From: a virus | Taxonomy: Duplodnaviria; Heunggongvirae; Uroviricota; Caudoviricetes | Direction: 5' to 3' (one strand) | Length of the DNA stretch: 23,775 nt | IMG/VR virus record: IMGVR_UViG_2579779002_000006 | Part shown: positions 20,678 through 22,386 of the stretch, piece by piece | How positions within the stretch are numbered: the first letter of the stretch is position 1 | Layout of the letters: each line of letters starts with the position of its first letter | Notes under the pieces: model-generated | Told to the model about the DNA's origin: nothing | Databases searched by the model: none | Seen by the model: only the letters and a program-made list of their open reading frames with translations | Made by a program: the position numbers and the translations under genes

Positions 20678-21004
20678 TCATAACACCGTCGGACAACGCA
20701 AATCGTAAATCAGCACGGAAACAGAAAACGGCAGCTCCCCCTGAAGCAGTTCTTCCCGCTCCGCAAGATCCGGATTCCGGTACAGCATCCCGGTCAGTCG
20801 CATGGCAGCCCCCTTCATCCGGGTTAATGCCTCGCCCGGGATCAGTTCACCGTCCTCACGGATCACTTTATCCCGGCTGCCCTGAATGTAGGCCAGCAGC
20901 ACGGCGGTAGCCTGACGAACCTTGTCCATCAGCATGTCATCATCCGCGTCATGGTCGACACGCAGATGTGCCTTGATCTCTTCCAGTGTCAGTAATGCCG
21001 TCAT
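20678..21004 (-). CDS. gp6-like head-tail connector protein
   Basis: 108 aa; N-terminus MTALLTLEEIKAHLRVDHDADDDMLMDKV... is the characteristic start of HK97 gp6-family connectors. Confidence 0.8.
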   Translation of the reverse strand: MTALLTLEEIKAHLRVDHDADDDMLMDKVRQATAVLLAYIQGSRDKVIREDGELIPGEALTRMKGAAMRLTGMLYRNPDLAEREELLQGELPFSVSVLIYDLRCPTVL

Positions 21005-22386
21005 TTTCCGCCTCCTGCATCCCGCCCACGTTTTGCAGCCAGGGTCCAGGCTGATGAATGAGCTTCTCCGGGTTTATCTTCGGTCATACTGTTGCAGTGC
21101 CACAGCGAGCCCCCCCACGTCACCGTATCGCCGGGGTGGTAGGTTTCACCGGCTCTGAACACACCGCGGTAGAGCATCACCGGCAGGGAAAATGTTTTTT
21201 CCGTACGCTGGCCACTGCTCTGCCGGACCACCACAGAGAACAACCGCTCACCCGTCATGCTGACGTCAATATCCGCCACCCCGTCAACCAGGCATTCCCA
21301 TCCCCGCATCCCGTGCGTTTTTTCATACGCCCGCCAGAGTCCGCCCTGGTGTGTGGCATACGTGCCCCGGGGAAAGGATTTTTGATCGTCAATGGCGGGG
21401 AGTATTTCCAGAGCCGTGGCATCACGCCCGTCCTGCGGAGCCGGCAGGGCACTCACCGCATCCAGAACCGCCTTCTGCAGAACATCCGGATCGTAGTCAC
21501 GACCATCACGCGGAACATGAATATGGCTTACCGCCTCCTTCACCATCTGTTCAAGCATCGGACGCACATCATCCGGGGTGAGACTTTTACCGTCTGCCGG
21601 CTGCGGAATATTTGCGACCGCATCATTCACCGCCTTCTGCAGAACATCGGGATCATAGTCACGACCGTCGCGCGGAACAGGGATATGGCTTACAGCCTCC
21701 TTCACCATCTGTTCAAGCATCGGACGCACATCATCCGGGGTGAGACTTTTACCGTCCGCCGGCTGCGGAATATTTGCGACCGCATCATTCACCGCCTTCT
21801 GCAGTACTTCCGGATCGTAGTCACGACCATCACGCGGAACAGGGATATGGCTTACAGCCTCCTTCACCATCTGTTCAAGCATCGGACGCACATCATCCGG
21901 GGTGAGACTTTTACCGTCCGCCGGCTGCGGAATATTTGCGACCGCATCATTCACCGCCTTCTGCAGTACTTCCGGATCGTAGTCACGACCATCACGCGGA
22001 ACAGGGATATGGCTTACAGCCTCCTTCACCATCTGTTCAAGCATCGGACGCACATCATCCGGGGTGAGACTTTTACCGTCCGCCGGCTGCGGAATATTTG
22101 CGACCGCATCATTCACCGCCTGCTGCAGTACATCCGGATCATAATCACGACCATCACGCGGTACCGGAATGGCCCCCACAGCGTCATCCACCATCGCCTG
22201 CAGAACCGGACGCACCTCATCCACCGTCACATGCTTCTGTAATACCGCCGACAGGGAAGTCAGTTTCTCTTCAAACGCTTGTGCCTGCGAGGCCATCTTC
22301 CCCTCAAATGTGCGCTGTAAATCCGCCAGCACCGTGGCGAATTCTTCACCCAGCGCACGGATAATGGACAGTTCACGTTCATTCAT
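21001..22386 (-). CDS. Structural-operon protein of unknown function (461 aa): N-terminal helical segment, five tandem 54-aa repeats, ~130-aa C-terminal domain
   Basis: ATGA overlaps with the portal gene upstream and the gp6-like gene downstream; repeats IPVPRDGRDYDP(D/E)VLQKAVNDAVANIPQPADGKSLTPDDVRPMLEQMVKEAVSH occur four times nearly identically plus one diverged copy. Confidence 0.8.
   Translation of the reverse strand: MNERELSIIRALGEEFATVLADLQRTFEGKMASQAQAFEEKLTSLSAVLQKHVTVDEVRPVLQAMVDDAVGAIPVPRDGRDYDPDVLQQAVNDAVANIPQPADGKSLTPDDVRPMLEQMVKEAVSHIPVPRDGRDYDPEVLQKAVNDAVANIPQPADGKSLTPDDVRPMLEQMVKEAVSHIPVPRDGRDYDPEVLQKAVNDAVANIPQPADGKSLTPDDVRPMLEQMVKEAVSHIPVPRDGRDYDPDVLQKAVNDAVANIPQPADGKSLTPDDVRPMLEQMVKEAVSHIHVPRDGRDYDPDVLQKAVLDAVSALPAPQDGRDATALEILPAIDDQKSFPRGTYATHQGGLWRAYEKTHGMRGWECLVDGVADIDVSMTGERLFSVVVRQSSGQRTEKTFSLPVMLYRGVFRAGETYHPGDTVTWGGSLWHCNSMTEDKPGEAHSSAWTLAAKRGRDAGGGK
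21455..22150. repeat. In-frame tandem repeat, 162-bp unit, about 4.3 copies, near-identical
   Basis: The string CACCATCTGTTCAAGCATCGGACGCACATCATCCGGGGTGAGACTTTTACCGTC recurs at 21541, 21703, 21865 and 22027 (period 162). Confidence 0.9.

What the first reader, a model, noticed from the sequence alone, without database searches (positions are those of the whole stretch)
21001..22386. 461-aa tandem-repeat protein in the slot where prohead protease and major capsid protein are expected
The gene is translationally coupled on both sides (ATGA overlaps with portal and with the gp6-like connector), so it belongs to the structural operon. It has a short helical N-terminus, five 54-aa repeats that are nearly identical at the DNA level (162-bp unit), and a ~130-aa C-terminal domain with an aromatic/Gly motif (YHPGDTVTWGGSLWHC) that looks to me like a small carbohydrate-binding module. 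It resembles neither a ClpP/S78-type protease nor an HK97-fold capsid protein. It could be a head fibre or decoration protein, a scaffold, or the product of an internal deletion.
Basis: partly seen in the sequence, partly recalled or inferred. Interest (0 to 1): 0.7.

Follow-up and report, generated by a model that had tools for sequence, protein, structure and literature searches.

The report
Conserved post-portal repeat fibre gene
The 461-aa repeat protein is a real, separate and widely conserved phage gene that always sits between the portal and head-tail connector genes. It does not replace the capsid and protease genes, which lie just beyond the end of the window, and its function has never been tested.

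Summary
The ORF (21001-22386, minus strand, 461 aa) is real. It overlaps the portal stop and the gp6-like connector start by ATGA. It carries a near-identical 162-bp array inside ten 25/29-aa helix-loop units.

The "missing protease/capsid" puzzle dissolves. In all 45 related loci where the upstream flank is present, the order is terL, S78-protease::HK97-capsid fusion, portal, this gene, connector. The window stops 28 nt upstream of the portal start, at a draft-contig end.

The protein belongs to a very large uncharacterised family (5,576 cluster representatives). It occurs as a stand-alone gene in gamma-, beta- and alpha-proteobacterial prophages.

AlphaFold gives a confident N-terminal helix, a low-confidence helical repeat stalk, and a confident C-terminal beta domain. 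The last ~50 aa of that domain match CBM5/12 chitin-binding modules and phage fibre knobs.

Unit number varies from 1 to 7 among E. coli prophages. In many E. coli phages one extra G fuses the gene to the portal. This is why RefSeq and PHROGs call it "portal protein" or "frameshifted portal".

My best reading is a low-copy, probably trimeric fibre at the portal vertex. Whether it lies outside (neck whisker) or inside (portal-tethered, ejected) is unresolved. This is an ordinary phage module with a moderately interesting orphan gene.

The parts
21001..22386 (-). Gene X: 461-aa post-portal repeat protein (50.4 kDa, pI 4.8)
   Evidence: ORF list. PHROG 1289/2271/8767/16748 hits. An identical protein occurs on 4 public contigs.
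22225..22386 (-). N-terminal ~52-residue single helix (aa 1-54); candidate coiled-coil or anchor segment
   Evidence: AlphaFold helix 3-52 with pLDDT ~95. The 3/4 hydrophobic spacing was read directly from the sequence.
21415..22224 (-). Ten helix + IPxPxDG-loop units (aa 55-324), alternating 25 and 29 aa; net charge -23
   Evidence: Register shown. AlphaFold gives helices of 12-17 residues with pLDDT 40-70. The 25/29 spacing is family-wide. Charge.
21467..22161 (.). Near-identical 162-bp tandem array (4.3 copies, 96% identity); copy number is polymorphic between prophages
   Evidence: TRF. X lengths of 245/299/353/407/461/569 aa in related loci.
21031..21414 (-). Conserved C-terminal beta domain (aa 325-452), the most conserved part of the protein
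   Evidence: AlphaFold pLDDT ~97. 50-69% identity to homologues in Pseudomonas, Burkholderiales and others.
21031..21174 (-). CBM5/12-type module (aa ~405-452) containing YHPGDTVTWGGSLWHC
22398..22402 (-). G5 run inside the last portal codons (..F R G I..). It is the Shine-Dalgarno-like element 11 nt upstream of X's ATG. A sixth G here fuses portal and X in many E. coli phages.
   Evidence: Alignment with phage 2851. 33 G5 against 28 G6 junctions among the 61 junctions found in the 87 sequences scanned (window plus 86 loci). 747 complete-genome records carry the exact G6 junction.
22383..23747 (-). HK97-family portal gene, translationally coupled to X
   Evidence: PF04860 at 2.9e-80. TIGR01537 at 1e-105.
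20678..21004 (-). gp6-like head-tail connector (Ad1), coupled to X. Its AGGAGG ribosome-binding site (21011-21016) lies in X's last codons.
   Evidence: PF05135. Sequence read.

Best explanation
Gene X is an independent, conserved accessory structural gene of one lineage of HK97-like head modules. That lineage has the order terL, S78-protease::capsid fusion, portal, X, gp6-like adaptor.

Shown:
- X is expressed from its own ATG, which overlaps the portal stop. An SD-like G-run sits 11 nt upstream.
- It is a stand-alone ORF in almost all lineages.
- It has three parts: an N-terminal ~50-residue helix, a variable number of 25/29-aa helix-loop units, and a highly conserved C-terminal beta domain ending in a CBM5/12-type module.
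- It does not substitute for protease or capsid protein.

Inferred:
- The protein is an elongated, probably homotrimeric fibre. About a quarter of homologues end in collagen-like G-X-Y tracts.
- It is made in portal-like low amounts.
- Its N-terminal helix anchors it at the portal vertex or neck. The repeat stalk acts as a length-variable spacer. The C-terminal knob binds a conserved glycan of the Gram-negative envelope or another conserved partner.
- It therefore works like a neck whisker or auxiliary adhesin, as T4 fibritin does, rather than as a core assembly protein.

The G6 'portal-X fusion' allele, common in E. coli Stx phages, is a derived one-base insertion in the ribosome-binding G-run. 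The split form in this window is the ancestral arrangement, not a pseudogene.
For: Synteny and separateness:
- All 45 species loci plus phages FSL SP-016, PAJU2 and RHph_X2_26 have the same synteny: portal, X and the head-tail genes wherever present, and the protease::MCP fusion upstream in every locus except L132 and those where the contig is too short.
- X starts 1-17 nt before or just after the portal stop.
- The natural portal C-terminus is conserved: RGILKK* in the window and RGFLTK* in the Salmonella phage. The fused allele reads through after an extra G.

Protease and capsid protein exist upstream:
- PF04586 + PF05065 on one 645-aa protein.
- A genome carrying the identical 461-aa X has that gene directly upstream of portal.

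Family size: 5,576 representatives at E<=1e-3, mostly 240-560 aa.

Structure:
- Helix 3-52 has pLDDT ~95 and the C-terminal domain ~97.
- Foldseek best hits are Agrobacterium phage 7-7-1 tail fibres (9rkv) and Milano receptor-binding proteins (8fqc), followed by chitinase/chitin-deacetylase chains and isolated chitin-binding domains.
- Most annotated BFVD hits are collagen-repeat or CBM5/12-bearing phage proteins, some of them large multidomain proteins.

Other points:
- 32 of 122 homologues have (GXY)>=4 after the knob.
- Copy number varies in exact 54-aa steps with the frame preserved, as expected for a spacer.
- Weak tail-fibre PHROG hits to the C-terminal part of homologues.
Against: - There is no experimental evidence that X is in virions. 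No paper was found that mentions it.
- The C-terminal domain is as conserved as, or more conserved than, portal and capsid protein across hosts: 60% against 43% in Burkholderiales. That is unusual for a host-receptor binder. It fits a phage-internal partner or a universal ligand better.
- Fusion to the portal C-terminus would place X inside the head, by general knowledge of portal structures. The fusion occurs in infectious phages such as 2851 and independently in P0217.
- The repeat region has low pLDDT, so neither a coiled-coil nor a solenoid geometry is established.
- The CBM5/12 Pfam hit is just below the gathering score.
Confidence: 0.45

Rival explanations
1. X is an internal head protein tethered to the portal crown through its N-terminal helix. 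This would make it the positional analogue of SPP1 gp7 / Mu gpF. It would be either retained as an axial core or ejected through the tail with the DNA. Its conserved CBM5/12 module would then bind a universal envelope polymer such as peptidoglycan.
For: - The gene lies immediately downstream of, and is coupled to, the portal gene.
- Natural fusions to the portal C-terminus exist in a very common E. coli allele, carried by infectious phage 2851, and in the unrelated P0217.
- In the fused protein AlphaFold predicts a ~45-residue disordered linker, so a tethered arrangement is sterically easy.
- The C-terminal domain is conserved across phages of alpha-, beta- and gamma-proteobacteria at 50-69%. 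That fits a host-independent ligand.
- By my own estimate, twelve copies (~0.6 MDa) would cost only a few hundred bp of packaging volume.
Against: - The closest structural analogues of the C-terminal domain are external fibre knobs and secreted-enzyme CBMs.
- Collagen-like C-terminal tails are typical of external fibres.
- The stalk is strongly acidic (net -23) and would sit next to packed DNA.
- Homologues with more than 20 units (P0217, P0123) would be longer than a capsid if extended.
- Only about 2 of ~150 representative clusters are fused.
- EHEC clones are heavily over-sampled, so the abundance of the fused allele is weak evidence.
Confidence: 0.3
2. X is a non-virion assembly factor. 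It would be a scaffold-like or nucleation protein that links the portal to the protease-capsid fusion during prohead assembly, and would then be degraded or expelled.
For: - It is helix-rich, acidic and elongated, like scaffolding proteins.
- It is encoded next to the portal gene.
- It co-occurs with the protease::MCP fusion in every locus where the upstream flank is available, with one exception (L132, which keeps only a 54-aa remnant of X).
- The conservation of its C-terminal domain tracks that of the head proteins.
Against: - No match to any scaffold family by Pfam, PHROG or fold.
- A beta-rich CBM-type C-terminal domain and collagen-like tails are not scaffold features.
- The number of units, and so the length, varies freely from 1 to 7 within E. 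coli. That would be odd for a size-determining scaffold.
- The protease-MCP fusion has its own helical linker (coiled-coil hit at aa 189-210).
Confidence: 0.1
3. X is a capsid-wide head fibre or decoration protein, in the manner of Hoc, pb10 or phi29 gp8.5.
For: - Fibre-like architecture with a glycan-binding-type knob.
- Repeat-number polymorphism.
- It is encoded in the head module.
Against: - Its translation is coupled to the portal gene, which is needed in only 12 copies per virion. It lies downstream of, not beside, the capsid gene.
- No similarity to any decoration family.
- The tail-tube protein of this phage already carries the Ig-like display domain.
Confidence: 0.08
4. X is simply the 3' part of a frameshifted, pseudogenised long portal gene. 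This is how NCBI's PGAP annotates it.
For: - PGAP marks the pair as one 'phage portal protein, frameshifted'.
- An 859-aa fused 'portal protein' exists in phage 2851, and the fused junction occurs in 747 complete-genome records.
Against: - Outgroups in Salmonella, Pseudomonas, Rhizobium and 45 species loci all have two ORFs.
- The portal stop and its C-terminal residues are conserved in those outgroups.
- X has its own ATG with an SD-like run upstream.
- The portal Pfam and TIGRFAM models end at aa 382-388 of the upstream ORF, and nothing in X matches them.
Confidence: 0.04
5. The repeat array, and hence the 461-aa length, is an assembly artefact of a short-read draft contig.
For: - The window end coincides with the end of a draft contig.
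- The 810-bp near-identical array is longer than short reads.
Against: - The identical 461-aa protein is present on 4 contigs of separate assemblies.
- Five-unit alleles occur in complete genomes, for example NZ_CP148349.
- All observed alleles differ by exact multiples of 162 bp.
Confidence: 0.03

Closest known systems
Homologues in sequenced phages: Stx phages 2851 / BP-4795 / phi330 (Pankowvirus), Salmonella FSL SP-016 SP016_00155, Pseudomonas PAJU2 ORF007 (PHROG 1289 / 2271)
   Same: Same family, with 63-95% identity to the enterobacterial members. Same position between portal and Ad1. Same three-part architecture.
   Different: The number of 54-aa units differs. In 2851 the gene is fused to the portal by one extra G. 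None of these homologues has an assigned or tested function. The 'portal protein' label comes from the fused allele.
T4 fibritin (Wac) neck whiskers
   Same: Works-like only. Both genes sit next to the neck/adaptor genes. Both have an N-terminal anchor, a segmented alpha-helical stalk interrupted by loops, and a C-terminal globular domain. Fibritin is an accessory, non-essential fibre (established knowledge).
   Different: No sequence or fold match was found. The C-terminus is a CBM5/12-type beta domain rather than a foldon. The helices are only 12-17 residues, joined by PxPxDG loops. A neck location has not been shown.
CBM5/12 chitin-binding modules (ChiB, ChiC; PF02839)
   Same: The motif aromatic-x6-Y-x2-GD-x-V-x-W/Y-x-G-x2-W/Y-x-C/A ... 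PG ... W is shared. Folds superpose at 2-3 A over ~50 residues.
   Different: The Pfam score is 1 bit below the gathering threshold. The module is embedded in a larger beta domain. The ligand is unknown.
Phage fibre proteins with collagen-like stalks and CBM5/12 knobs; Agrobacterium phage 7-7-1 and Milano tail-fibre / receptor-binding proteins (9rkv, 8fqc)
   Same: These are the best structural matches of the whole C-terminal domain, ~147 aligned columns at prob 0.97-1.0. Many homologues carry collagen-like tails.
   Different: Those proteins are tail components. X is encoded in the head/neck module and is linked to the head type, not the tail type. The E-values are marginal (1e-3 in PDB).
SPP1 gp7 / Mu gpF minor head proteins (PF04233)
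   Same: Both are encoded immediately after the portal gene and are sometimes fused to it. gp7 is a low-copy protein bound to the portal inside the head (established knowledge).
   Different: No homology by Pfam. X is acidic and fibre-like with a CBM-type domain.
P22 portal C-terminal barrel
   Same: In the fused allele the portal acquires a long helical C-terminal extension that would project into the head.
   Different: AlphaFold predicts a disordered ~45-residue linker, not a continuous helix. The ancestral state is a separate protein.

Membership tests
HK97-fold major capsid protein (PF05065) | Sequence match to a capsid HMM, or the HK97 fold (A and P domains, spine helix) | tested here: not met
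Prohead protease S78 / ClpP | Match to PF04586 or ClpP, with the Ser-His catalytic fold | tested here: not met
   No hit in X. PF04586 lies at aa 48-152 of the upstream 645-aa fusion protein.
Phage portal protein (PF04860 / TIGR01537), the database label of X | Portal fold (clip, stem, wing, crown) matched by the HMM | tested here: not met
   PF04860 covers aa 54-382 and TIGR01537 covers aa 45-388 of the upstream ORF only. Nothing in X matches. The X model is a helix, a helical repeat region and a small beta domain.
PHROG 1289 / 2271 / 16748 (uncharacterised post-portal family) | Full-length HMM match | tested here: met
   phrog_1289 at E 3.6e-214, phrog_2271 at E 0 (matching its C-terminal half), phrog_16748 at 5e-97.
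PHROG 1289 / 2271 / 16748 (uncharacterised post-portal family) | Conserved position between the portal and gp6-like adaptor genes | tested here: met
   48 of 48 loci show this position where the flanks are present.
CBM5/12 carbohydrate-binding module (PF02839) | HMM score above the gathering cut-off | tested here: inconclusive
   25.1 bits against a cut-off of 26.2 for the isolated domain. Homologues score 23.1 and 15.0 bits.
CBM5/12 carbohydrate-binding module (PF02839) | Small three-stranded beta fold with exposed aromatic residues | tested here: met
CBM5/12 carbohydrate-binding module (PF02839) | Binding to chitin or another glycan | not testable with these tools
   This needs pull-down of the recombinant domain with chitin, sacculi or LPS.
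T4 fibritin-type neck whisker | Homology to Wac, or a C-terminal foldon | tested here: not met
   No PDB sequence or fold hit to fibritin.
T4 fibritin-type neck whisker | Trimeric fibre attached to the neck of the virion | not testable with these tools
   Only indirect evidence: collagen-like tails in 32 of 122 homologues. It requires cryo-EM or immuno-EM.
SPP1 gp7 / Mu F minor head protein (PF04233) | HMM match to Phage_Mu_F | tested here: not met
   No Pfam hit. Only the gene position is analogous.
Programmed -1 frameshift fusion (portal-X) | A conserved slippery heptamer at the junction in split alleles | tested here: not met
   The A6 run of the window is replaced by GAGAAAA or GCGAAAA in other split alleles. 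Salmonella has AGAGGA instead of the G-run. Overlaps of 1, 4 and 14 nt in other taxa fit termination-reinitiation.

The most novel reading that the evidence does not exclude
X is packaged inside the head, tethered by its N-terminal helix to the portal crown. The natural portal-X fusions would then be a Rosetta stone for this arrangement. X would be ejected through the tail with the leading DNA end, and its universally conserved tandem CBM5/12-type domain would grip peptidoglycan. That would make it an unrecognised class of ejection or pilot protein in siphophages, including the long-tailed Stx phages.
Probability: 0.25. Interest if true: 0.75.

Novelty: new member of a known kind. Interest (0 to 1): 0.4.

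Why it matters
- It removes a false alarm. This prophage is not missing its capsid and protease genes, because this lineage places a protease-capsid fusion gene before the portal.
- It corrects a widespread annotation. In the split allele, which PGAP marks as a frameshifted portal, and in hundreds of Stx-phage records, a distinct gene is hidden under the portal-protein label.
- It flags a very large, syntenically fixed family with no tested function in medically important Shiga-toxin phages. The family has 5,576 cluster representatives across Proteobacteria.
- Its C-terminal domain is at least as conserved as the portal and capsid proteins. Its length changes by whole 54-aa units between strains.
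- Deciding whether it is an external whisker or an internal portal-tethered protein would add a new component to the HK97-like virion plan. The repeat array is also a potential typing marker and a known breakpoint for short-read assemblies.

Tried and rejected
1. **Programmed frameshifting.** I tested whether the portal-X junction uses programmed -1 frameshifting at the G5 or A6 run. This was rejected. The A-run is not conserved among split alleles. The G-run corresponds to AGAGGA in Salmonella and sits 11 nt from the ATG like a ribosome-binding site. Other taxa use 1-, 4- or 14-nt overlaps.
2. **A repeat unit in the portal tail.** I tested whether the portal C-terminal tail (..PPDGASDG..helix) is itself one copy of the X repeat. 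An HMM built from 343 units found no portal hit better than E 0.28.
3. **A P22-like barrel in the fused allele.** I tested whether the fused allele forms a continuous barrel helix. AlphaFold of the 806-aa fusion gives a low-confidence coil at aa 410-455 before X's helix. The portal part was poorly modelled because the alignment was shallow.
4. **Named families.** Sequence searches returned nothing useful. NCBIfam gave nothing. The PDB sequence search gave only designed helical repeats, by composition. The other Pfam hits (TetR_C_35, Glycos_trans_3N, FliG_N and others) have no individually significant stretch. They are repeat-driven noise.
5. **Literature.** Searches covered Pankowvirus, phage 2851, BP-4795, PAJU2, neck fibres and 162-bp repeats. 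No statement about this protein was found. The phi330 paper reports virion mass spectrometry but shows only podophage proteins.
6. **Technical dead ends.** The full-length alignment was too variable for the locus search.
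Full report
**1. The observation**

The window has an ORF at 21001..22386 on the minus strand, 461 aa. Its ATG overlaps the stop of the upstream gene as ATGA. Its stop overlaps the ATG of the downstream gene as ATGA. The neighbours are:
- an HK97-family portal: PF04860 at 2.9e-80, TIGR01537 at 1e-105;
- a gp6-like head-tail connector: PF05135.

These are followed by head-closure, gp10-like, tail-completion, tail-tube (with an Ig domain), the G/T chaperones and the tape measure.

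Tandem Repeats Finder finds a single array in the whole window: 21467-22161, period 162, 4.3 copies, 96% identity, no indels. In the protein this is the core of ten consecutive units, aa 55-324. They alternate a 25-aa form (IPVPRDGRDYDPDVLQKAVNDAVAN) and a 29-aa form (IPQPADGKSLTPDDVRPMLEQMVKEAVSH).

**2. The 'missing' protease and capsid protein**

In phage 2851 the gene between terL and portal encodes a 645-aa protein. It carries Peptidase_S78 at aa 48-152 and Phage_capsid at aa 386-635. The same order recurs in several places:
- E. coli prophages;
- Salmonella phage FSL SP-016, Rhizobium phage RHph_X2_26 and Pseudomonas phage PAJU2;
- 45 loci from different gamma-, beta- and alpha-proteobacterial species.

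That order is terS, terL, protease::capsid, a small ORF, portal, X, connector.

A public contig encoding the identical 461-aa protein has the fusion gene directly upstream of portal (L133). Another draft contig (L134) shares the window's broken tape-measure gene, and its sequence begins exactly at the window's right end. The window simply stops at a contig end 28 nt upstream of the portal start. Nothing is missing or replaced.

**3. X is a gene in its own right, although databases say otherwise**

PGAP annotates portal plus X as one 'phage portal protein, frameshifted'. PHROGs 1289 and 2271 carry the label 'portal protein'. Phage 2851 has one 859-aa 'portal'.

The alignment of the junction shows why. 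Phage 2851 has six Gs where the window has five (window 22398-22402). This shifts the portal frame into X. In the split form the portal ends ..AMFRGILKK*. The Salmonella phage ends ..AMIRGFLTK* and is followed by MNERELS.. as a separate ORF. All 45 species loci have two ORFs, with 1-17-nt overlaps or small gaps. Among the 150 best cluster representatives, only one besides the E. coli cluster, P0217, begins with a portal. The split form is therefore ancestral.

The G-run is AGGGGG in E. coli and AGAGGA in Salmonella. It lies 11 nt before X's ATG and reads as its ribosome-binding site. An AGGAGG for the connector gene lies likewise in X's last codons.

Of the 87 sequences scanned (the window plus the 86 loci then held), 61 contained a recognisable junction: 33 are G5 and 28 are G6. 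In complete E. coli genomes the exact G6 junction occurs in 747 records. The same haplotype with G5 occurs in 52 records. The window's G5 haplotype occurs in 88 records.

G6 sits on two nearly identical haplotypes. One or a few insertion events followed by spread in heavily sampled EHEC clones is enough to explain this. I found no conserved slippery site, so programmed frameshifting is not supported.

**4. The family**

A full-library HMMER search gives 5,576 representatives (clusters at 50% identity) at E<=1e-3, and 635 at E<=1e-30. Lengths are mostly 240-560 aa. All have the same plan:
- an N-terminal helix;
- a variable number of units, with family-wide spacing of 25 and 29 aa;
- a conserved C-terminal domain with consensus GRDAxxLEILPxIDxxKSYPRGTYAxHxGGLWR...GWEC...YRGVF...Y..GDTVTWGGSLWHC...DKPG...W.L..KRGRDG.

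32 of 122 representatives continue with four to nine G-X-Y triplets.

In E. coli-type loci X is 245, 299, 353, 407 (the commonest), 461 or 569 aa. That is 1-7 copies of the 54-aa double unit, always in frame. The array is thus a genuine length polymorphism. Five-unit alleles occur in complete genomes.

Against distant hosts the C-terminal domain is at least as conserved as the other head proteins. In Pseudomonas it is 60-62% identical, against 54% for the capsid domain, 50% for portal and 34-42% for the connector. In a Burkholderiales locus it is 60% against 43% and 43%.

**5. Structure**

AlphaFold2 with a 109-sequence alignment gives:
- a single helix at aa 3-52, pLDDT ~95;
- ten helices of 12-17 residues separated by ~12-residue loops, pLDDT 40-70;
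- a beta domain at aa ~325-452, pLDDT ~97.

In BFVD most of the annotated significant matches are collagen-repeat proteins or CBM5/12-bearing phage proteins, some of them large multidomain proteins.

Pfam CBM_5_12 scores 25.1 bits on the isolated domain, against a cut-off of 26.2. There is no match to capsid, protease, portal, scaffold, decoration or Mu-F families.

The stalk is strongly acidic, with net charge -23, while the knob is neutral.

**6. Mechanism**

Shown:
- X is a separate, conserved, translationally coupled gene of the head/neck module.
- It has an anchor-stalk-knob layout and a CBM5/12-type end.

Inferred:
- Coupling to the portal gene argues for low copy number, and so for a location at the unique portal vertex rather than all over the capsid.
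- Collagen-like tails in homologues argue for trimers.
- Fibre-knob analogues and free variation in stalk length argue for a spacer that presents a binding domain.

My preferred reading (0.45) is a whisker-like fibre at the portal vertex or neck. It would work like T4 fibritin or an auxiliary adhesin without being related to them.

The main rival (0.30) is an internal, portal-tethered and possibly ejected protein. It is supported by the natural C-terminal portal fusions in infectious phages, by the analogy with SPP1 gp7 / Mu gpF, and by host-independent conservation of the knob. The fused-protein model shows a disordered linker of ~45 residues, so tethering is feasible.

Lesser rivals are an assembly factor, a capsid-wide head fibre, a pseudogene fragment and an assembly artefact. 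I cannot decide between inside and outside with these tools.

**7. Known or new**

The sequence family is already catalogued in PHROGs and RefSeq, and a precomputed Pfam accession, PF28083, appears on homologues. This copy is about 81-95% identical at protein level to those of sequenced Stx phages. No function has been assigned, and I found no paper discussing it.

I rate it a new member of a known kind: a phage accessory fibre with a CBM-type knob. Interest is moderate. It is widespread, mis-annotated and untested, in medically relevant phages.

**8. Context caveat**

The prophage in this window is probably defective. Its tape-measure gene carries an 82-bp frameshifting deletion relative to intact relatives. 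X itself is intact and identical to copies in other assemblies.

Noticed in passing
window 14849-18009 (minus): The tape-measure gene is split into ORFs of 701 aa and 337 aa. Alignment to the intact 1080-aa gene of L133 shows an 82-bp deletion near 15933, flanked by CGGGG microhomology. The prophage is probably tail-defective.
   Followed up: yes
window 23748-23775 and the right end: The window's right end coincides with the end of public draft contig JJLS01000170.1 (L134). The upstream head genes (a 73-aa ORF, the protease::capsid fusion and the terminase) are cut off. The likely cause is that this module is multi-copy in EHEC genomes and breaks short-read assemblies.
   Followed up: partly
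window 22398-22402 and related loci L001, L007-L086: A G5/G6 polymorphism toggles portal and X between two genes and one fused gene. RefSeq PGAP treats the two-gene state as a frameshifted pseudogene, although it is the ancestral arrangement.
   Followed up: yes
window 21011-21016 (minus): A perfect AGGAGG ribosome-binding site for the gp6-like connector gene lies inside the last codons of X. This explains the odd Gly-rich tail ..DAGGGK*, which varies (..DAGG*) in relatives.
   Followed up: partly
window 18751-19467 (minus): The major tail tube protein carries a C-terminal Ig-like domain (Ig_3 / I-set), so this phage already displays an Ig-type surface module on its tail.
   Followed up: no
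window 3479-4069 (+) next to 4167-7849 (minus): A Pin/Hin-type serine invertase gene lies beside the side-tail-fibre and tail-fibre-assembly genes. This suggests an invertible host-range segment at the prophage end. An MFS transporter gene (861-2144) marks flanking chromosome.
   Followed up: no
window 8864-12142 (minus): The J-like tip attachment protein matches only positions 1-54 of the 135-position C-terminal receptor-binding profile (Ig_GpJ_C). Its receptor-binding end may be truncated or replaced.
   Followed up: no
L132 (Symbiopectobacterium purcellii) 4977-5141: Only a 54-aa remnant of the X C-terminal module remains next to the connector gene, and the portal there is of a different type (25% identity). 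This looks like a natural loss or replacement of X.
   Followed up: no
P0217 (1237 aa) and P0123, P0153, P0182: Some homologues have more than 20 helix-loop units. P0217 is an independent portal-X fusion with an acidic low-complexity linker. P0123 and P0182 carry an extra inserted beta segment in the stalk.
   Followed up: partly
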